Assembly: GCA_022709715.1 (NCBI GenBank)
Contig: JAKLIH010000001.1
Span: forward strand, 64,225 to 128,224
Origin: Patescibacteria group bacterium
GTDB lineage: Bacteria; Patescibacteriota; Minisyncoccia; UBA6257; JAKLIH01
DNA: 64,000 nt
Direction: 5' to 3'
The notes beneath the pieces were generated by a model that saw only the letters and a list, made by a program, of their open reading frames with translations, ran no database searches and had not been told where the DNA came from. Shown here in pieces: positions 5,329 through 20,755 of the stretch (the stretch's first letter is position 1; each line of letters begins with the position of its first letter). Made by a program: the position numbers and the translations under genes.

Positions 5329-7068
5329 TTACATTTCAAAATAAGCCTCTTTAGTTATTTGCGATTCTTTTAAATTAAGTTTTTTTATAAACTTTTTTAA
5401 ATCAATTTGGCTGGCGTTGTCAAAACGCACTTCCACAAAATTTCCTAATTCGACTTTTTTATTGTTTTCTATTTTGGTTACCTGATTGTCAATAGAAAAA
5501 ATTATATTGTCTAGCTTAAAAAGAATTCTTTCTTTTTTAATTTTTTTAACAATGTTGGGATAAATCTGACTGATAACTTTTTCAGTTTGGTCATCAATAT
5601 AAAATTCAAATTTCGGTCTTTCCCTAACTTCATCTTTCTTTTTCGGCCCTTTATAGGTAATGATTTTTTTACCACCTTCATTTCTAATTCTTAGAATTTC
5701 TCCGGTCATTTTTAAATCTCGATCTTGAGGATTAAAATAGGTATCAGTTTGAATAGTTGAGCTTAAAATTTCAGCTCCGATTTCGCGAAGATAATTGATG
5801 TCTAGTGAAGTTTTAAATTTAACCTGTTTTTCACTCATGCCGGATTTTTCGGATTCAATATTTGGATTATATTCATTGTTGATAATTAAATCGGCTTTCT
5901 TTTTGGTGGCATCAATATATTTTTCGTGCATGGGTTGCACGACTTGAAGAAAATATTTAAAAATATCTAGTGGCTTTTGCCCGGTTCTGGTAATGTCTCT
6001 TAGCAATCTACGAATAATTCGACCGTGAGCACCAATTTCAACAAAAACTTTTAAGTCACCATAAGATTCTAAACTTTTGTCTAAAACAAATAAGCCTTCA
6101 GCGATAATAATTTTTTTAGGAAAAACTTTTTCAGTTGTTAAAGATTCACAGGCCTTCATGTCGTAGATCGGTTTATCAACTGATTCATTATTTTTTAATT
6201 TCAATAAATGTTTACCGAACAAATCTAGATTCACGGCTTCGGGTTGATCTCAATTTAATATATGTCCTTGTTTATATTCAGATTGTATAAATTGATTGCC
6301 TTTGTAATAATCGTCACAAGAAAAAATGATAGCTTGATCTGGAAAATTATCTTTGATTATTTTTGAAACGGCACTGGTTTTACCAGAAGCTGATCCCCCG
6401 GCAATTTGAACAATTAAATTATCTTTAGTATGTTTTAATTTTTCATTTATTAAATTTGTCAGTTCTTTGAGGCCAGATTCAAGAGAATATTCTGGGATTG
6501 ATAATTTTTCATCAACTTCTTTTTTCTTTTCTTGAGGAATGAAAATGTATCCTTGTGATAAATTTTTATTTTTATATAAACTATTTTCAGTTTGTTCTTC
6601 GCCAAATCAATCGGGTATTATAAAATCATTACTTTCATCTTCATCATCAAACTCTACCTCAGCAAGAATTAAACCATTTAATCTACCTTGATACACATCA
6701 ACTTCAATTGTAAATTTTTGATAAGGAATTTTATAACGAATTTTTTCAATCTTTGACTCTAAAGTTCCGGATCACAATGAATCAAATTGTTTTTTGGAAA
6801 TTTTTATTTCAATTTCAGTTCGAATTTTGCCATCACCCTTTTTTATAGTTTGAAAATATTCGTTACCATGTTGACGAAGTCTTATTTCGGAGCCATCATC
6901 GATAATTGCTAAATAACCTTGTAAAATTTTTTGATGAGGATATTTTAAAAATTTTTCGGGTAAATTTTTAATTAAAAACTTTCTTTCAATTTCTTGATGT
7001 TTTTTTGCTTGAGCAATTTTATTATTTTTACTAATTTTTAAATTAATTTGCTTTTTCTGTTTTTTCAT
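5329..7068 (-). CDS. CYTH - uridine-kinase-like P-loop - CYTH fusion protein
   Basis: Three ORF pieces in one frame joined by TGA. N-terminal EIERKFL CYTH, GGSASGKTS P-loop, second CYTH-like C-terminus. TGA falls at the conserved Trp of the CYTH PDW motif. Confidence 0.75.
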
Positions 7069-7104
7069 AATTATTGAAGTTATAAAATAATTATAATGAA
7101 TTTG

Positions 7105-7142
7105 TGGAGCTAAGGAGAATCGAACTCCTGACCTTTACAATG
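7105..7142 (-). pseudogene. duplicated 3' part of tRNA-Ala (no 5' half)
   Basis: 42-nt direct repeat 7101-7142 = 7161-7202, 18 nt apart. Confidence 0.85.
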
Positions 7143-7164
7143 TCCCGATTTTATGGGTTATTTG

Positions 7165-7237
7165 TGGAGCTAAGGAGAATCGAACTCCTGACCTTTACAA
7201 TGCGAATGTAACGCTCTACCAACTGAGCTATAGCCCC
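7165..7237 (-). tRNA. tRNA-Ala (anticodon CGC)
   Basis: cloverleaf GGGGCTA...TAGCTCC-A with G3:U70; anticodon loop TTCGCAT; no encoded CCA. Confidence 0.9.
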
Positions 7238-7269
7238 ATAAAATAATTATACCAAAATTTTTTTGAATG

Positions 7270-7307
7270 CAAAACCCCTGCGATAACTGAATTACCAAAC
7301 AGGGGTT
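7270..7307 (-). terminator. rho-independent terminator of ORF 7335-7616
   Basis: minus strand CCCCTG...CAGGGG stem followed by TTTTG. Confidence 0.6.
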
Positions 7308-7334
7308 GTTGAGTTGTCATAGATGTCTCCTTTT

Positions 7335-7616
7335 TTATTTGTTATTAACTTTGTTAGTTATGACCGCGGTTATAAAATTTTTAATAGCCACAAGAGATTC
7401 AACTAACTTTTCAATAGTTTGGTAAGTTATTTTACTACGTGCCACAATATGATAACGAGTAATTGATTTGCCACGATTGCAACATGAAAACTTGCCAACA
7501 ACAAATACCCACCCATTGTGATCCATCGAGGCCGTATTTCTGATTTTTAGTTCACAGATAAGGCCAATAACTTTTTGTGACAACTCTTCTGATGAACCTA
7601 TTTTGGTGATAATCAT
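7335..7616 (-). CDS. hypothetical 93-aa protein
   Basis: strong SD AAAGGAGGTG, own TGcTATAAT promoter (7651-7659) and terminator; no TGA, TAA stop. Confidence 0.65.
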   Translation of the reverse strand: MIITKIGSSEELSQKVIGLICELKIRNTASMDHNGWVFVVGKFSCCNRGKSITRYHIVARSKITYQTIEKLVESLVAIKNFITAVITNKVNNK

Positions 7617-7650
7617 TTTTCACCTCCTTTTTTAAAGTTTTCTAAATAGA

Positions 7651-7718
7651 ATTATAGCATATTTTTATATAAAATAAAACAATACAAATCAAATATGCTA
7701 AAATCTAAATGAAACATT
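7651..7718. promoter_or_regulatory. shared bidirectional promoter module, copy X
   Basis: Homologous to 30805-30872 and, for about 40 nt, to 8136-8178. Minus-strand extended -10 at 7651-7659; plus-strand TGcTAAAAT inside 7697-7705. Confidence 0.5.
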
Positions 7719-7746
7719 GCGGTCAAGTAATTAATAAATCTAAAAA

Positions 7747-7842
7747 TCCCAACGCTGTCTTGCAGCGTTGGGATAAAAAACAAGTAAGTTTTTGTAATTT
7801 TAAACACCTCGGGAAATAATATTTGCCGAGGTGTTATCATGA
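7747..7842 (-). terminator. two perfect hairpins downstream of ORF 7844-8098
   Basis: CCCAACGCTG/CAGCGTTGGG followed on the minus strand by ATTTTT, and AACACCTCGG/CCGAGGTGTT. Confidence 0.5.
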
Positions 7843-7843
7843 A

Positions 7844-8098
7844 CTACGATAATTTGTGATTTATTGTTTCATCTTTAAATTTTTTAAGATCTTTTTCTGT
7901 TATTACTTTGTGGTATTGACCACCAGAACATCGTTGTGCAATTCTCCATAACATTAAATTATTTGTTTCCTTCGTTCTTTTAGGAATGGCTTCTCCTGTC
8001 TCAAGTTTCTTTATCAATATTTCAGGATCTACGAATTTATTTTCGGATGGAATATCCGAAAATAATAACTTGAAAAAACGAACAATTTTTTTAATCAT
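7844..8098 (-). CDS. hypothetical 84-aa protein
   Basis: ORF with TGaTATAAT promoter at about 8136-8144 (minus); single Trp is TGG. Confidence 0.55.
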   Translation of the reverse strand: MIKKIVRFFKLLFSDIPSENKFVDPEILIKKLETGEAIPKRTKETNNLMLWRIAQRCSGGQYHKVITEKDLKKFKDETINHKLS

Positions 8099-8179
8099 TA
8101 TATTATCCTTTCTTTTTTATACTTGTTCTAATATAATTATATCATATTTTTAAAAAATAAACCAATGCAAGGATGAAAT

Positions 8180-8318
8180 GTCACCAATCGAAAACTACTG
8201 TTTTCGATTGGTGACACCCTCGATGATATAAAATATCATCGAGGGTGTTAAAATCCAAGCGATAACCATAAATGGTTATCGCCAATCAATCGCCTTGGCA
8301 ATAGCCAAGTCGATTGAT
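8180..8318. repeat. four back-to-back unrelated hairpins
   Basis: 8180-8215 (16-bp arms), 8216-8246 (14 bp), 8259-8282 (11 bp), 8285-8318 (nested, about 14 bp). Confidence 0.8.
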
Positions 8319-8323
8319 ATAAT
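8295..8323 (+). promoter_or_regulatory. candidate promoter reading into the palindrome element
   Basis: TTGGCA (8295-8300), 17 nt, TATAAT (8318-8323). Confidence 0.45.
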
Positions 8324-8333
8324 ATTTTGCACC

Positions 8334-8952
8334 ATGTCGCAAAATATTCAGAAACAAAAGTGCGTGACACTTTATACAATGTCGCAAAATAATGCGTGAC
8401 AAGTGAAAATGTCACGCGCGTGACACTTTGACTACGTTTTCCGACTTTTAATATAAAAATTATTGCGAAATGTCACACGCGTGACAATTCAAAAGCAATC
8501 TCAAAGGTCAAATATCAAAACTCAAAAGTATAAGTCAAAGATCAAAAATTTTAATACTCAGCAAAACATAAATGATTTCAAAGTGTCACGCCTACCTACT
8601 GTCAGGCAGGCGCGTGACATTTTGATTATTAAATCGAATTTATGGTTTAAACTAATAATAATTTAGTTTGCAGATCAAAAATACATCCTTATTTTATATA
8701 AATTGAAATTTTAATATTTGCGAATTGTCACGCGCGTGACAATTCGCAATTTTTTGTTTTTTAATTACTAATTATTATTTGCCAATTACTCTTTAGTTTT
8801 TACCCCTTCCTTCATAAAGGATGGGGATTTTTAAGATTTGATTTATATTTTTGATTTTTGATTTTTGATTTAGTTGTTGAATTGTCACGCGCGTGACAAT
8901 TCAAAACCGATGTCGCAAAATATTCAGAAACAAAAGTGCGTGACACTTTATA
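8334..8952. mobile_element. 533-bp non-coding element flanked by perfect 43-nt direct repeats
   Basis: DR 8334-8376 = 8910-8952. The interior carries five TGTCACGCGCGTGACA-type palindromes (8410-8425, 8471-8486, 8584-8619 split by a 20-nt insert, 8720-8747, 8877-8904) and inverted TCAAAA modules. Confidence 0.5.
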
Positions 8953-8992
8953 AAAAGACCGAATTAACTTTTATTAATCCGGTCTTATTTTT
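8952..8992. terminator. bidirectional terminator
   Basis: AAAAAGACCG...CGGTCTTATTTTT. Confidence 0.6.
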
Positions 8993-9020
8993 CATCTCTG
9001 CTTTTATGGTTTTACTAGAA

Positions 9021-9203
9021 TTAATTTTTCATCGTCGTCAATATAAACATATTGACGACGATGATAATAATTTCATCGGCGTGTTGCCCGTTTCCATAAT
9101 GCAACATACGACACTCAGTGCAAAACCACACTAAGTCATATTGATTGGCTCGATAGGGTGGTAATCTTTGACTGGATTTATATTTAGGATTTTTACAAAT
9201 CAT
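9021..9203 (-). CDS. hypothetical 60-aa protein (CxxxxxxC...CxxC N-half, hydrophobic C-terminus)
   Basis: SD AAGGAGGGG before ATG; TTGATG-17-TATAAT promoter upstream; terminator downstream; Trp is TGG. Confidence 0.6.
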   Translation of the reverse strand: MICKNPKYKSSQRLPPYRANQYDLVWFCTECRMLHYGNGQHADEIIIIVVNMFILTTMKN

Positions 9204-9327
9204 AAACCCCTCCTTAAAATAAATCTGCTGCTTACATTATAATATATAGAAGGTGACACATCAATATATTAAAATTATTAAATTTATGGTATACTCATGA
9301 TATTAGATTTAAAATAATTTTTAAATT

Positions 9328-10311
9328 ATGAAAAATAAAATTCCTAAAGTAATTGTAATCGGTGGTGGAACTGGTGCGTTTAATACATTGATGTCTTTAA
9401 AAAAATTCCCAATCGATTTAACAGCTATTGTTTCAATTGCTGATGATGGCGGATCATCAGGTGTGCTTCTTGAAGATTTTGGAATTTTACCACCTGGTGA
9501 TATAAGAAGAGCCTTGGTGGCAATGGCACCGGATTCGGCAAAACTTTTAACTAAACTTTTTAATTATCGTTTTGAAAATGGTTCAGGGTTGCGAGGCCAC
9601 AGTTTTGGTAATTTATTTTTAACCGCCCTAACTAGTATTACAAAAAATTTTAATAAAGCTGTGGATGATGCTGGAAAAATTTTAAACATTAAGGGTAGGG
9701 TGGTACCAGTATCACTGGATCAATGTCGATTGATTGCTAAACTCAAATCCGGTATTTTTATTTTTGGAGAAACCAATATTGACATTCCTAAAAATAAAGA
9801 AAAAAATATTTTTATTGAAAAAATATTTTTAAACACCAAAGTCAATGCCAATCCGGAAGCCATAAAAGAAATTAAAAAAGCCGATTATATTATTGTTGGC
9901 CCGGGAGATCTATACACAAGTATCGTGCCAAATTTTTTAGTGACTGGTATTAAAGAAGCCTTTCAAAAATCAAAAGCTAAAAAAATTTATATTTGTAATT
10001 TAGTAACTAAATTTTCAGAGACCAATGGTTTCACAGCAATTGATTTTTTAAAAACGTTAGAAAAATATATTTGTAAAAAATGTTTTGATTATATGGTCAT
10101 CAATGACTTTCAAAAAATTCCTAAAAGATTAATTAATGTTTATAAAAAGGAAAAAAAGTTGCCAGTCAAATTCAATAAAAGAGAATTTCAAAATAATAAA
10201 AAAATGAATATTGTGATTGATGACTTAACTAGAAAAAATATGTTATTGCGTCACGATCAAAAAAAACTGGGAGAAGCCATTTGAAAAATTATACAAGCTA
10301 ATAATGCTTAA
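9328..10311 (+). CDS. YvcK/CofD-family (UPF0052) protein
   Basis: GGGTG and IADDGGSSG motifs; one TGA read-through near the C-terminus; TGgTATACT promoter upstream. Confidence 0.8.
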
Positions 10312-10323
10312 TTTTGTTGACAC

Positions 10324-10352
10324 TTGACAAATAACAAAAATAGGTGTATAAT
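10324..10352 (+). promoter_or_regulatory. consensus promoter of the CAP-domain gene
   Basis: TTGACA-17-TATAAT. Confidence 0.65.
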
Positions 10353-10377
10353 ATTAATATAAGCTAAAATTAAATCT

Positions 10378-11460
10378 ATGAAAAAAATATTTAAAAAATA
10401 TTTTACATTTAATAAGCAAAATCATTTTCAACCGATCCAAACCAAAAATTTTATGATTGGTGTTTTTCTATTAATGATGATTTTTAATAGTAGCTATCAA
10501 TGATTGAACTGTTACTTACTTAGACAAAATAGTTTAACCGCTAATTTAAATACATTAAATATTATTACCGAAATTAATAAAATTCGTAGCGCTTATGGAT
10601 TATCCCCGTTGGCGGAAAATCCAAAACTCGATATAGCCGCTTTGCTTAAAGCTCAAGACATGATTGATAATGATTATTTCAATCACTATAGCCCAACTGG
10701 TAAAACACCTTGAGATTGGATCAATAGTGCTCAATATAATTATAAATATGCTGGTGAAAATTTAGCTCTTAATTTTTTTAATGATGAGGAAACCGTTCAA
10801 GCTTGACTTAATTCACCAACCCATAAAGAAAATATATTAAATCCTAATTATAAAGATACAGGTGTGGCCATTTTAAGTGGTGTGACACCGACTACTAAAG
10901 AGACTAGAACGGTAGTAGTGCAAATGTTTGGTACCGAAAAAATAGCAACTATTACACCAACCGCTAAACCAACTATCAAAACCACAACTACAACCGTTAA
11001 ACCAACAACGACTACTTTATTAAAAACTACGACCACTTCATTAGCCACAACTACTACTGAAGAGATAGTAATAAATCAAACACCATTATTAAATGCCACT
11101 ATTAAAGCCGACGGGGAAGTAACTGTAATAAAAGAAGAAACTATGACCGCTTTAAAAAATTTGACTCCAATTTTAAATAAACAATTAAGTGATACAAAAA
11201 ATTCACTAGCCTTAAACACCGAAGTAATTGGTGAAATGATTAATCCGAAATTAACCAAGGCCATAAACAATGGTTTGGGTTTGGGTCTTTTATTTTTAGG
11301 AATTTTTGGTATAATTAGTATAAATGCTCAAGACGATATTTCTAATATGTTTAAAAAAAGATTACTTGCTAAAAATGCATTAATATTAGTTATCGGCTTA
11401 GGATTTATTTTAAATAATTTGACGGCTTTAATTTTTAAGATTAAAGTGCCTACTATATAA
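10378..11460 (+). CDS. CAP/SCP (YkwD-like) domain protein with Thr-rich linker and C-terminal TM segment
   Basis: pieces 10378.., 10504.., 10864.. in one frame joined by TGA; GENLA...WLNSPTHKENIL motif. Confidence 0.8.
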
Positions 11461-19576: not shown

Positions 19577-20755
19577 ATGTTAGATCTACGTGATGTAAAG
19601 ACAGCTGTTAAGCAGTTGACTATGGAAAAAGGTTTTCCGGAAAATAAGATTTGGGAAATTATCGAATTGGCTATTGCTAGAGCTTATAAAAAAGAACACC
19701 TTAAAAAAGGTGAAATTATTAGAGCTAAAATTGATCAAGATACCGGTTCGGTCAAATTTTATAAAGTCATGATCGTGGTGGATAGCGAAATGCTAAAAGA
19801 TGAAAATGATGATGACCAAGATACTTATTTTGATGATGAAGAAAGCATTGATAATCCCGATAAAAAAATCCGCTTTAATCCCGATAAGCATATTATGTTA
19901 GAAGAAGCGAAAACAACCCACAAAAATGTATCGGTTTTGGATGAAATTGTTACGCCGCTAGAAGCTGATGAAACTTTTACTAGAATTGCTGCTCAATCGG
20001 CTAAACAAACCATTATCCAAGAAATAAGAGAATTAGAAAAAAACTTAGCTTTGGATGAATTTAAAGATAAAGAAAATGAATTGGTTTCAGGCACAATTCA
20101 AAGAATTGAGAATAATAATGTTTATGTGAATTTAGGTAAAGCTTCCGGTTTGCTTTTTGCCAAAGAAGCATTACCCAACGAAAGCTTTAGGATCGGTGAA
20201 AGAAAAAAGTTTTTAGCTTTAGGTATGAAAGAAGCCGGCGGGACATTGATGATTTTATTATCCAGAACTCACCCTTCGTTTGTAGAAAAACTTTTGGCTA
20301 TAGAAGTGCCCGAACTTCAAGAAAAAATAGTAGAAATAATGGCTACGGCTCGAGAACCAGGCTTTAGAACCAAAATTGCGGTTAAAAGTAATAATGATGA
20401 AATTGATCCAGTTGGAGCTTGTATCGGACCAAAAGGAGTAAGAATTAATGCTTTGGCCGACGAAATACCTTCTGAAAAAATTGATGTGATTGAATATTCA
20501 GAAGAACCAGCTAAATTTGTAGGTAATGCTTTGTCCCCTGTGACAATATCGGAAACAGAAATTATTCCGGAATCAAGAGAAATAAAAGTTTATGTTGACC
20601 CAAATTTACTTTCTGCCGCTATTGGTAAAAATGGTCAAAATGTTAGATTGGCATCTAAATTAACTGGTTGAAATATAAAAATTTATTCTTCGATCACATC
20701 CACTGAAGTTAAAACCGATAATGATGTCGAAGAAACCAGTGATAGTGAAAATTAG
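19577..20755 (+). CDS. nusA: transcription termination/antitermination factor NusA
   Basis: S1 and KH domains; TGA at 20669-20671 aligns with the Trp of the conserved LSGW motif. Confidence 0.95.

What the first reader, a model, noticed from the sequence alone, without database searches (positions are those of the whole stretch)
8334..8952. 533-bp non-coding element with five TGTCACGCGCGTGACA palindromes, flanked by perfect 43-nt direct repeats
ATGTCGCAAAATATTCAGAAACAAAAGTGCGTGACACTTTATA occurs at 8334-8376 and again at 8910-8952. Between the two copies lie five copies of a 16-bp palindrome: 8410-8425, 8471-8486 with one mismatch, 8584-8619, 8720-8747 and 8877-8904. The last two extend to 28-nt perfect palindromes. 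The third is split exactly at its centre by a 20-nt insert of the GCCTGCC-hairpin family. The element is also internally symmetric, because palindrome 2 plus its TCAAAA module mirrors the TCAAAA module plus palindrome 5. Clustered identical palindromes are typical of operator arrays, centromere-like (parS-type) sites or iterons. Direct repeats around an internally symmetric core are typical of an inserted element. The region lies in a 1.2-kb gene-free gap where gene orientation switches from minus to plus.
Basis: seen in the sequence. Interest (0 to 1): 0.6.

Follow-up and report, generated by a model that had tools for sequence, protein, structure and literature searches.

The report
Diverged parS centromere array, CPR bacterium
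The cluster of TGTCACGCGCGTGACA palindromes is most likely this tiny uncultured bacterium's chromosome-segregation site (parS), in a version that has drifted far from the sequence usually described as universal on bacterial chromosomes; relatives preserve the intermediate steps.

Summary
The 16-bp palindrome occurs nowhere else in the 900-kb genome (TGA-recoded Patescibacteria, 30% GC).

It is not a REP-like repeat, a recent insertion, or an origin by GC skew or DnaA boxes. Every member of the same family with an assembled locus has one such array. In genera g1 and g2 it lies upstream of the same cofD/yvcK gene.

About 16 sister families of the order instead carry one tight array of canonical parS (TGTTTCACGTGAAACA) with the same build. 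These arrays have 2-11 sites in under 1 kb. Some have the same accessory box (ATGTCGCAAAATA) or bracketing direct repeats.

Hybrid sites inside single arrays link the canonical half-site to this one: TGTTTCAC, TGTTTCGC, TGTTTAGC, TGTCACGC, TGACACGC.

The genome has one full-length chromosomal-type ParB (plus a 95%-identical fragment on C85) and no canonical parS. I therefore read the element as the ParB-binding centromere, at about 0.8 confidence. Binding is inferred, not shown.

The 43-nt repeats are conserved boundary modules (box plus half-site), not target-site duplications.

This scan has already noted dense canonical parS arrays in many Patescibacteria. It has also noted this same palindrome array in another genome, without a visible follow-up. 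The new point here is the non-canonical sequence and its traceable path.

The parts
8334..8376 (+). Left boundary module (43-nt direct repeat). It consists of the accessory box ATGTCGCAAAATA (8334-8346), a spacer, and a right half-site GCGTGACA (8362-8369).
   Evidence: The same module brackets the arrays of G005, G002 and G010. The box also lies next to canonical parS arrays in G023, G051 and G143.
8379..8402 (+). Short module: box ATGTCGCAAAATA (8379-8391) plus half-site GCGTGACA (8394-8401).
   Evidence: G023 has ATGTCGCAAAATAAT followed by GTGAAACA, the canonical half-site, at the equivalent place.
8410..8425 (.). parS-like site 1, a perfect TGTCACGCGCGTGACA followed by CTTTGAC.
   Evidence: The CTTTGAC tail also follows each TGTTTAGCGCTAAACA site in G009.
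8471..8486 (.). parS-like site 2, with one mismatch (TGTCACACGCGTGACA).
8584..8619 (.). parS-like site 3, split at its central CG by a 20-nt insert (8592-8611). The insert is the core of a dispersed GC-rich hairpin repeat. The site is probably inactivated.
8720..8747 (.). parS-like site 4. The core is 8726-8741 inside a 28-nt perfect palindrome. It is followed by a T-run and also scores as an intrinsic terminator on the + strand.
8877..8904 (.). parS-like site 5. The core is 8883-8898 inside a 28-nt perfect palindrome.
8910..8952 (+). Right boundary module, the second copy of the 43-nt repeat. Box at 8910-8922, half-site GCGTGACA at 8938-8945.
8295..8323 (+). Promoter-like site TTGGCA-17-TATAAT with an upstream TG. 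It matches 11 of 12 consensus positions and points into the left boundary module.
   Evidence: This is a consensus match only.
8487..8539 (-). Inverted copy of a dispersed TTTTGA-rich repeat in the spacer after site 2.
8754..8872 (+). Spacer made of copies of two dispersed intergenic repeats (8754-8800 and 8823-8872, about 17 other genomic copies each) around a terminator-like hairpin at 8806-8826.
8957..8990 (.). Bidirectional terminator-like hairpin (AAAAAGACCG...CGGTCTTATTTTT) that closes the locus. It lies downstream of the 60-aa minus-strand ORF at 9021-9203.
   Evidence: read directly from the sequence.

Best explanation
The element is the chromosome's parS centromere, an array of binding sites for the genome's one full-length ParB (Spo0J-type CTPase clamp).

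In this family of Patescibacteria the half-site has drifted from the canonical TGTTTCAC to TGTCACGC. That changes 3 of 8 positions while keeping T1, G2, T3, C6, C8 and the central CG.

Proposed mechanism (inferred, not shown):
- ParB dimers recognise the four intact 16-bp sites through their HTH domains.
- Arg173 reads the invariant G at position 2 of the half-site.
- The dimers close as CTP-dependent clamps and spread over the neighbouring DNA. This forms one partition complex that marks the region for segregation and/or for loading of the SMC-like protein.

The 43-nt direct repeats are conserved boundary modules. Each is made of an accessory box (ATGTCGCAAAATA) and a single half-site. The box's partner or role is unknown. 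In this genome it lies just downstream of a strong promoter-like site.

Site 3 has been broken by insertion of a genomic hairpin repeat. The spacers have been colonised by dispersed intergenic repeats, which explains the internal symmetry.
For: 1. Uniqueness. All perfect copies and 12 of 15 half-sites in the 900-kb genome lie here.

2. Conservation. One array per genome was found in G001 (6 sites), G005 (4), G002 (3 or more), G003, G006, G008 and G010. It lies upstream of cofD/yvcK in genera g1 and g2.

3. Mutual exclusion with the same build. Canonical parS with up to 1 mismatch is missing from the 11 other genomes of family f1 and from G000 itself. The one exception is a single, probably chance, site in G002. 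In about 16 sister families it forms one tight array of 2-11 sites within 0.1-1 kb.

4. Shared accessory parts.
- ATGTCGCAAAATA(A/G)T plus a half-site precedes the canonical arrays of G023 and G051 (f13).
- ATGTCGCAAAATAT precedes the array of G143 (f3).
- The same box precedes the f1 arrays.
- The canonical array of G035 is bracketed by roughly 45-nt direct repeats containing a TGTCGCA motif and split half-sites.

5. A stepwise series with hybrid sites inside single arrays.
- G038: TGTTTCGC|GTGAAACA.
- G011 and G027: TGTTTAGC and TGTTTCGC mixed.
- G009: 7 copies of TGTTTAGCGCTAAACA.
- G008: 2 copies of TGTCACGCGCGTGACA and 6 copies of TGTCACGC|GCTAAACA.
- G006: TGTTTCGC|GCGTGACA.
- G010: TGACACGCGCGTGTCA.
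Hybrid sites are not self-complementary. What is conserved is therefore a pair of half-sites, not a hairpin.

6. The partner protein.
- One full-length ParB with ParB_N, HTH_ParB and ParB_C domains. It scores 172 bits on TIGR00180 against a cut-off of 58 and carries the GERRLRA motif.
- It lies 55 kb away on the same contig.
- There is no second full-length ParB/Noc. The only other match is a 95%-identical fragment on contig C85, probably a strain variant.
- It keeps every parS-contacting residue listed in PMC7383237: Q162, G170, K171, S172, R173, N178, small residue at 201, R204.
- R173 bonds the G that is invariant in all variants.

7. One covariation event. G010 is the only genome whose palindrome changed T3 to A. 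It is also the only one of 29 ParBs with S172G and E174Q in the recognition helix. Its congener G006, 87% identical, keeps both the old site and the old residues.

8. The three sampled genomes with no ParB match (G019, G026, G037) also have no array match.
Against: - No binding data exist. The ParB-site link rests on comparative inference only.
- The f1 ParB shows no change at the four known specificity positions relative to ParBs of genomes with canonical parS. How it would read C4/A5/G7 is therefore unexplained. The only family-wide differences are Y160, E163 and M164, and these are clade-linked.
- The site fails the canonical consensus at 6 of 16 positions. One of these is position 7, which is reported as highly conserved among 1030 predicted sites (PMC3899335).
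- No canonical ParA was found (best hit 41.6 bits). An SMC hinge was not found either.
- Distance to oriC could not be measured, because dnaA is on another contig.
- The array's neighbours differ from those of the canonical arrays: cofD here, yraN-nusA there. Positional homology across families is therefore only loose, with nusA lying 10.6 kb downstream in this genome.
- The covariation in G010 is a single event.
Confidence: 0.8

Rival explanations
1. The palindromes are an operator array for a different, so far unidentified, dimeric DNA-binding regulator. That regulator would control transcription from the promoter-like site at 8295-8323 or of the neighbouring small genes. ParB would bind something else.
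For: - A strong promoter-like site points into the array, and site 4 scores as a terminator.
- The ParB DNA-contact residues are unchanged although the site differs at 6 of 16 positions.
- The conserved box ATGTCGCAAAATA also occurs at a second promoter-like locus, C64:17567.
Against: - No HTH or other DNA-binding domain was found in the adjacent ORFs, and those ORFs are not conserved beside the array in relatives.
- The array is homologous in architecture and accessory box to arrays of perfect canonical parS in sister families.
- Hybrid sites join canonical-type and derived half-sites within one 16-mer.
- If ParB bound something else it would have no site, because no canonical parS exists in the genome.
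Confidence: 0.1
2. The region encodes a structured non-coding RNA, or a set of terminators or attenuators, in which the palindromes act as RNA hairpins.
For: - A promoter-like site lies upstream.
- Site 4 plus its T-run scores as a terminator, and a terminator-like hairpin lies at 8806-8826.
- Four hairpins precede the array at 8179-8318.
Against: - There is no Rfam match.
- Spacers are not conserved between species, whereas the 16-mers are identical.
- In G008, G006, G011 and G038 most sites are hybrids of two different half-sites and cannot self-pair.
- Sister families have canonical parS at the same architectural position.
Confidence: 0.05
3. The region is a replication origin (chromosomal oriC or an integrated plasmid or phage origin) with the palindromes acting as iterons.
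For: - Gene orientation switches from minus to plus near here.
- A-tract or TTTTGA-rich stretches could serve as unwinding elements.
- Perfect DnaA boxes lie next to the canonical arrays in G023, G051 and G143.
Against: - GC skew is positive on both sides for tens of kb, with only a local dip that follows gene orientation.
- There is no DnaA-box cluster within 3 kb, and no perfect box nearer than 4.6 kb.
- dnaA is on another contig.
- No Rep-type gene lies nearby.
- The TTTTGA-rich stretches are copies of a dispersed repeat.
Confidence: 0.03
4. The region is a mobile or inserted element whose 43-nt direct repeats are target-site duplications or att-like ends.
For: Perfect 43-nt direct repeats bracket an internally symmetric core.
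Against: - The same repeats, built from the conserved box and a half-site, bracket the array in G005, G002 and G010. Analogous repeats bracket a canonical array in G035.
- The locus is at the same chromosomal position in two genera.
- No empty site was seen.
- No transposase or integrase lies adjacent.
Confidence: 0.02

Closest known systems
Chromosomal ParB/Spo0J-parS centromeres (consensus TGTTNCACGTGNAACA; B. subtilis, Caulobacter, and the Myxococcus xanthus cluster of 22 sites in 3 kb, PMC3899335)
   Same: - The site is a 16-bp inverted repeat of two 8-bp half-sites with a central CG.
- T1, G2, T3, C6 and C8 are retained.
- Several sites are clustered at one locus.
- A chromosomal-type ParB with the CTP motif and all known parS-contacting residues is encoded in the genome.
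- Sister families carry the canonical sequence in the same kind of array.
   Different: - Six of 16 positions differ (T4C, T5A and A7G per half-site).
- The sites are packed within 0.5 kb, as in a plasmid centromere.
- Box-plus-half-site direct repeats bracket the array.
- No ParA was found.
- PMC5450999 describes TGTTTCACGTGAAACA as shared by the chromosomal Par systems identified so far, whatever the species.
Bsr centromeres of Burkholderiales secondary replicons (PMC5450999)
   Same: - They are families of 16-bp palindromes with a central CG that diverged from one another and resemble chromosomal parS.
- Each is read by its own ParB.
- Some positions tolerate change.
- Natural asymmetric (hybrid) sites exist, for example parS-12J.
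   Different: - Those belong to secondary chromosomes and plasmids and co-exist with a canonical parS on chromosome 1, where divergence prevents cross-talk.
- Here the only ParB system of a single small chromosome has drifted.
- Whether this ParB groups with the Bsr ParBs was not tested with a tree. It scores as a generic ParB/Spo0J.
Noc/NBS, the ParB paralogue with switched specificity (PMC7383237)
   Same: It is a documented case of a ParB-family protein whose 16-bp palindromic target differs from parS at two positions per half-site, reached through permissive and specificity-switching changes.
   Different: - The NBS sequence (ATTTCCCGGGAAAT) is absent from the genome.
- This ParB has R173, A179, Q184 and S201, the parS-type pattern, not Noc's Q/K/K/R.
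- The Noc model scores below its cut-off.
Plasmid centromeres built of phased repeats (F sopC, 12 x 43 bp)
   Same: Many ParB sites lie at short, roughly regular spacing in a few hundred bp. Relatives show 42-, 48- and 52-bp phasing.
   Different: - This array is chromosomal and conserved at one locus across genera.
- Its spacing in this genome is irregular (61-157 bp), because dispersed repeats have invaded the spacers.

Membership tests
Chromosomal parS (ParABS centromere) | 16-bp inverted repeat of two 8-bp half-sites with a central CG | tested here: met
   TGTCACGC|GCGTGACA. There are three perfect copies, one copy with one mismatch and one split copy.
Chromosomal parS (ParABS centromere) | Match to the consensus TGTTNCACGTGNAACA | tested here: not met
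   10 of 16 positions are identical. No site with 2 or fewer mismatches to the consensus exists anywhere in the genome.
Chromosomal parS (ParABS centromere) | A cognate chromosomal-type ParB is encoded in the genome | tested here: met
   One full-length ParB (plus a 95%-identical fragment on C85). It has ParB_N, HTH_ParB and ParB_C domains, scores 171.9 bits on TIGR00180 (cut-off 58.45), carries GERRLRA, and has all parS-contact residues.
Chromosomal parS (ParABS centromere) | ParB binds the site specifically and loads as a CTP-dependent clamp | not testable with these tools
   This needs EMSA, bio-layer interferometry, ChIP-seq or a clamp-loading assay.
Chromosomal parS (ParABS centromere) | Location in the origin-proximal part of the chromosome | tested here: inconclusive
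   parB is 55 kb away on the same contig. dnaA is on another contig, both here and in four relatives. GC skew is uninformative across contigs.
Chromosomal parS (ParABS centromere) | A ParA (Soj) partner ATPase | tested here: not met
   The best AAA_31 hit is 41.6 bits inside an 830-aa frame, and there is no Soj-like gene next to parB. The genome is 98.8% complete but lies in 107 contigs.
Chromosomal parS (ParABS centromere) | Homology of the locus to arrays of undoubted parS in relatives | tested here: met
   The evidence is a shared box (ATGTCGCAAAATA), bracketing repeats, the CTTTGAC tail, and hybrid half-sites that link canonical and derived forms.
Noc binding sites (NBS) | The ATTTCCCGGGAAAT-type sequence and a Noc protein with Q173/K179/K184/R201 | tested here: not met
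   No NBS array was found. The residues are R/A/Q/S. The Noc model scores 218.8 bits against a cut-off of 315.
REP/BIME-type dispersed palindromes | Many copies scattered through the intergenic regions of the genome | tested here: not met
   All copies lie at one locus.
Iterons of a replication origin | Repeats next to a rep or dnaA gene, DnaA boxes, and a skew switch | tested here: not met
Inserted mobile element with target-site duplication | Direct repeats that arose on insertion, empty sites in relatives, and a recombinase | tested here: not met
   The repeats are conserved functional modules in other genera and in another family. No empty site and no recombinase were found.

The most novel reading that the evidence does not exclude
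This order of Patescibacteria may be a natural case of a chromosomal centromere sequence evolving step by step, with the steps preserved as hybrid sites, while the known DNA-contact residues of ParB stay fixed.

This would imply that ParB here reads mainly T1-G2-T3 and the central C8/G9, and tolerates or reads differently positions 4-7.

In addition, the array may be a transcribed, bounded unit:
- a promoter fires into it;
- conserved box-plus-half-site modules at both ends bind a second, unknown factor or limit ParB spreading.

The single S172G/E174Q change in G010, paired with T3 to A in its sites, would then identify the residue-base contact for position 3.
Probability: 0.3. Interest if true: 0.75.

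Novelty: new variant of a known kind. Interest (0 to 1): 0.6.

Why it matters
PMC5450999 describes chromosomal parS as one sequence shared by the chromosomal Par systems identified so far, whatever the species. PMC3899335 reports that positions 3 and 7 are almost invariant among 1030 predicted sites.

This report describes a lineage whose single chromosome uses a site that differs at 6 of 16 positions. Relatives hold the intermediate and hybrid forms. That would give a natural counterpart to the engineered ParB-to-Noc specificity paths.

It makes three questions directly testable:
- which ParB residues read positions 3-7;
- whether specificity can drift by promiscuity rather than by switching;
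- what ParB does in a genome in which no ParA was detected.

Such pairs could also serve as orthogonal ParB/parS labels.

For annotation, searches with the canonical parS matrix will report "no centromere" for this family, and that result would be wrong.

Tried and rejected
- **WhiA operator idea.** It was prompted by the GACAC-like motif and the neighbouring yvcK gene. It was dropped because no HTH_WhiA or LAGLIDADG_WhiA match exists in the genome.
- **oriC idea.** GC skew on C1 is positive on both sides of the locus and is heterogeneous between contigs. There is no DnaA-box cluster nearby.
- **Rfam.** The scan of 6000-11000 found only the tRNA.
- **Neighbouring small ORFs as regulators.** The 84-aa and 60-aa ORFs gave no domain apart from a sub-threshold Mut7-C hit. 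They are not conserved beside the array in relatives.
- **Strict synteny with the canonical arrays.** The canonical arrays lie upstream of yraN-nusA. Here yraN is on contig C17 with no array, and nusA is 10.6 kb downstream.
- **Family-wide ParB covariation.** The specificity positions 173, 179, 184 and 201 do not separate the f1 ParBs from ParBs of canonical-site genomes. G027 has TGTTTAGC sites with the ordinary QREI helix.
- **The box ATGTCGCAAAATA as the start of a gene (MSQNI...).** The downstream frames are not conserved between species.
- **Literature.** Searches for parS in Patescibacteria or the candidate phyla radiation found nothing relevant. PMC4450421, the Spo0J-parS structure paper, is not held.

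Full report
**The observation**

- The 43-nt repeat is at 8334-8376 and 8910-8952, and extends to 46 nt at 98%.
- TGTCACGCGCGTGACA is perfect at 8410, 8726 and 8883.
- The copy at 8471 has one mismatch.
- At 8584-8619 the two halves are separated by exactly 20 nt.
- 8720-8747 and 8877-8904 are perfect 28-nt palindromes.
- Shuffled sequence gives no match, against four found.

The window lies in a 900-kb genome of 107 contigs with 30% GC. In that genome all three perfect copies, and 12 of the 15 GCGTGACA half-sites, lie at this locus. They are the only perfect TG-N5-CG-N5-CA palindromes apart from two copies of a GC-rich hairpin repeat. The palindrome is therefore not a dispersed REP-like repeat.

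**The organism**

Several long frames close only if TGA is read as sense, and dnaA carries an in-frame TGA. In NusA the TGA aligns with an invariant tryptophan. Public titles of the relatives' contigs name Patescibacteria or Paceibacterota.

**Ideas that failed**

- Origin of replication. GC skew on the 154-kb contig is positive on both sides of the locus, with only a local dip that follows a block of minus-strand genes. There is no DnaA-box cluster nearby, and dnaA is on another contig.
- Known RNA family. Rfam finds only the tRNA.
- Local regulator. The neighbouring ORFs show no DNA-binding domain.
- WhiA. It was considered because the next gene is a cofD/yvcK homologue, but WhiA was not found in the genome.

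**Conservation in relatives**

BLAST of the region against 40 relatives found the locus in every same-genus genome and in other genera of the family.
- G001 has six perfect palindromes, G005 four, and G002 three plus a gap. In G003 and G004 the array is cut by contig ends.
- G010, from another genus, has three copies of a variant, TGACACGCGCGTGTCA.
- The bracketing repeats are conserved as well. The module TGTCGCAAAATA...GCGTGACAC stands at both ends of the array in G005, G002 and G010.
- In genera g1 and g2 the array lies directly upstream of the same cofD/yvcK gene.
- In every relative with an assembled locus the DNA between the repeats held palindromes, and no empty site was seen.

This rules out a recent insertion with target-site duplication.

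**The decisive comparison**

- The genome has one full-length ParB, 55 kb away on the same contig. A 95%-identical fragment on contig C85 is probably a strain variant.
- The genome has no site within two mismatches of canonical parS.
- Across 150 genomes of the order, GWCACGCGCGTGWC occurs only in this family, apart from one lone site, and always as one cluster per genome.
- Canonical parS with up to one mismatch is missing from the 11 other genomes of the family and from G000 itself. The one exception is a single, probably chance, site in G002.
- In about 16 sister families canonical parS forms one tight array. Examples are five copies at 48-bp spacing in G016, five in G035, six to nine in G013, eight to ten in G025, and four or five in G023.
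- The architecture is the same as here: several 16-bp palindromes in a few hundred bp at one locus.

**Homology of the loci**

- The box that opens the 43-nt repeat, ATGTCGCAAAATA, also precedes canonical arrays. In G023 it reads ATGTCGCAAAATAAT followed by GTGAAACA. In this genome the short module at 8379-8401 reads ATGTCGCAAAATAAT followed by GCGTGACA. The sequence is the same, and each family's own half-site follows it.
- G051 and G143 show the same box next to their arrays.
- The canonical array of G035 is bracketed by roughly 45-nt direct repeats that hold a TGTCGCA motif and two separated half-sites. This is the same plan as the 43-nt repeats here.
- In G009, from the same family, the box is followed by seven copies of TGTTTAGCGCTAAACA. 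Each is followed by CTTTGAC, the same tail that follows site 1 here.

**The half-site series**

Arrays in single genomes contain hybrid sites:
- G038: TGTTTCGC|GTGAAACA.
- G011 and G027: TGTTTAGC and TGTTTCGC halves mixed.
- G009: TGTTTAGC palindromes.
- G008: two TGTCACGCGCGTGACA and six TGTCACGC|GCTAAACA, at 42-bp spacing.
- G006: TGTTTCGC|GCGTGACA next to full TGTCACGC palindromes.
- G010: TGACACGC.
- G022: eleven sites that vary at positions 6-7.

Two points follow. First, canonical parS is connected to the palindrome of this window by small steps, each seen inside arrays of the same kind. Second, many sites are not self-complementary. Selection therefore keeps pairs of half-sites, as expected for a dimeric DNA-binding protein, and not a hairpin.

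**The protein**

- The ParB has ParB_N, HTH_ParB and ParB_C domains and passes TIGR00180. The Noc model stays below its cut-off.
- It carries GERRLRA and ENVQRE.
- Mapped on the Caulobacter numbering of PMC7383237, it keeps every residue reported there to contact parS: Q162, G170, K171, S172, R173, N178, a small residue at 201, and R204.
- R173 hydrogen-bonds the G at position 2 of the half-site. That G is invariant in all variants found here.
- Against the reading, the four specificity positions (R/A/Q/S) are the same as in G035, which has canonical sites. Only Y160, E163 and M164 distinguish the whole family, and this difference is confounded with descent.
- One independent event does fit. 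G010 is the only genome whose sites changed T3 to A. It is also the only one of 29 ParBs with S172G and E174Q. Its congener G006, 87% identical, keeps both the old residues and the old site.
- The three sampled genomes with no ParB match (G019, G026, G037) also show no array.

**Other features of the locus in this genome**

- The 20-nt insert in site 3 matches 19 of 22 positions of the dispersed GC-rich hairpin repeat GCCTGCCTACCGGCAGGCAGGC. The insertion is specific to this genome and probably inactivated that site.
- The spacers hold copies of two dispersed intergenic repeats, 8754-8800 and 8823-8872, each with about 17 other copies. An inverted copy lies at 8487-8539. This accounts for much of the internal symmetry and is not conserved in relatives.
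- A strong promoter-like site (TTGGCA-17-TATAAT with an upstream TG, 8295-8323) points into the left repeat, and site 4 with its T-run scores as a terminator.
- No Soj-type ParA was found, and no SMC hinge. A short SMC-like gene is present on C64.

**Comparison with what is known**

- PMC5450999 states that the chromosomal Par systems identified so far, whatever the species, share TGTTTCACGTGAAACA.
- PMC3899335 notes that positions 3 and 7 are highly conserved among 1030 predicted sites, with only two examples of G at position 7.
- Divergent 16-bp palindromes with a central CG are known for secondary replicons of Burkholderiales (the Bsr families) and for Noc.
- I found no paper on parS in Patescibacteria.
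- This scan already holds many notes on dense arrays of canonical parS in Patescibacteria. It also holds one note, with no visible follow-up, on this same palindrome array in another genome, read there as an iteron or operator array. Those notes were found after my own comparison and agree with it.

**Verdict**

This is a real, conserved, single-locus array that is best explained as the ParB-binding centromere in a strongly diverged form. Confidence is about 0.8.
- Shown: the sequence facts, the conservation, the mutual exclusion with canonical parS, the shared accessory parts, the hybrid series, and the presence and residues of ParB.
- Inferred: that ParB binds these sites, how it reads them, what the box does, and what the complex does in a genome in which no ParA was detected.

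Noticed in passing
window 19577-20755 (nusA): The single in-frame TGA aligns with the invariant Trp of the KH-domain motif KLTGW(K/R)ID in NusA of three relatives. TGA therefore appears to be read as tryptophan in this Patescibacteria genus. dnaA of genera g1 and g2 also carries an in-frame TGA, whereas dnaA of G009 does not.
   Followed up: partly
genome G000, location not determined: ARAGORN reports one tRNA with anticodon UUA, which would read the stop codon TAA, and finds no tRNA with anticodon UCA.
   Followed up: no
G000:C64:17567-17660, outside the window: A fourth copy of the box ATGTCGCAAAATATT lies in an intergenic region. It is followed by AAGGAG, a 9-12-codon frame and a terminator hairpin. 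The arrangement is conserved in G001 and G003, and G004 also has a second box copy (context not examined). The box may mark the start of a small transcript or be an operator.
   Followed up: partly
window 8179-8318: Four abutting hairpins precede the array. The last two are conserved as structures in G005, with a compensatory change in one and a replaced inner stem but retained outer arms (ATCAAYC...GRTTGAT) in the other. G001, G002 and G010 have different hairpins at the same place.
   Followed up: partly
window 8592-8611 and 37 other genomic places: A GC-rich hairpin repeat with core GCCTGCCTACCGGCAGGCAGGC is dispersed in this 30%-GC genome. Here a copy lies exactly at the centre of a parS palindrome, which suggests insertion at palindrome centres.
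   Followed up: partly
window 8754-8800 and 8823-8872: Two short dispersed intergenic repeats, each with about 17 other copies in the genome. The TTTTGA-rich one also matches many places in other families of the order.
   Followed up: partly
G000:C64:34503-36767 and C40:483-836, outside the window: The only SMC-like gene is short (about 750 aa). Its head domains match, but no hinge was detected. The only ParA-like hit is weak (41.6 bits) and lies inside an 830-aa frame. ParB may work here without Soj.
   Followed up: no
L027 about 4005, L063 about 1320-1340, L062 (G023, G051, G143): Perfect DnaA boxes (TTATCCACA) lie within or just after the canonical parS arrays of these sister-family genomes, between the array and yraN or nusA. 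This hints that the array may abut oriC there.
   Followed up: no
G022:C7:14332-15308: An array of eleven TGTTTNNC|GNNAAACA sites in which positions 6-7 differ from site to site (AT, AC, GT, AA, GG, AG, GA). ParB of this order may tolerate much variation there.
   Followed up: no
G000:C85:3-440: A second, partial parB copy 95% identical to residues 285-430 of the main gene. It probably reflects strain heterogeneity in the assembly.
   Followed up: no
window 9021-9203 (-): A 60-aa ORF with a strong AAGGAGG Shine-Dalgarno sequence and a terminator. It contains Cys motifs and gives a sub-threshold match to the zinc-ribbon end of Mut7-C (E 0.004). A weak counterpart lies beside the array in G005.
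   Followed up: partly
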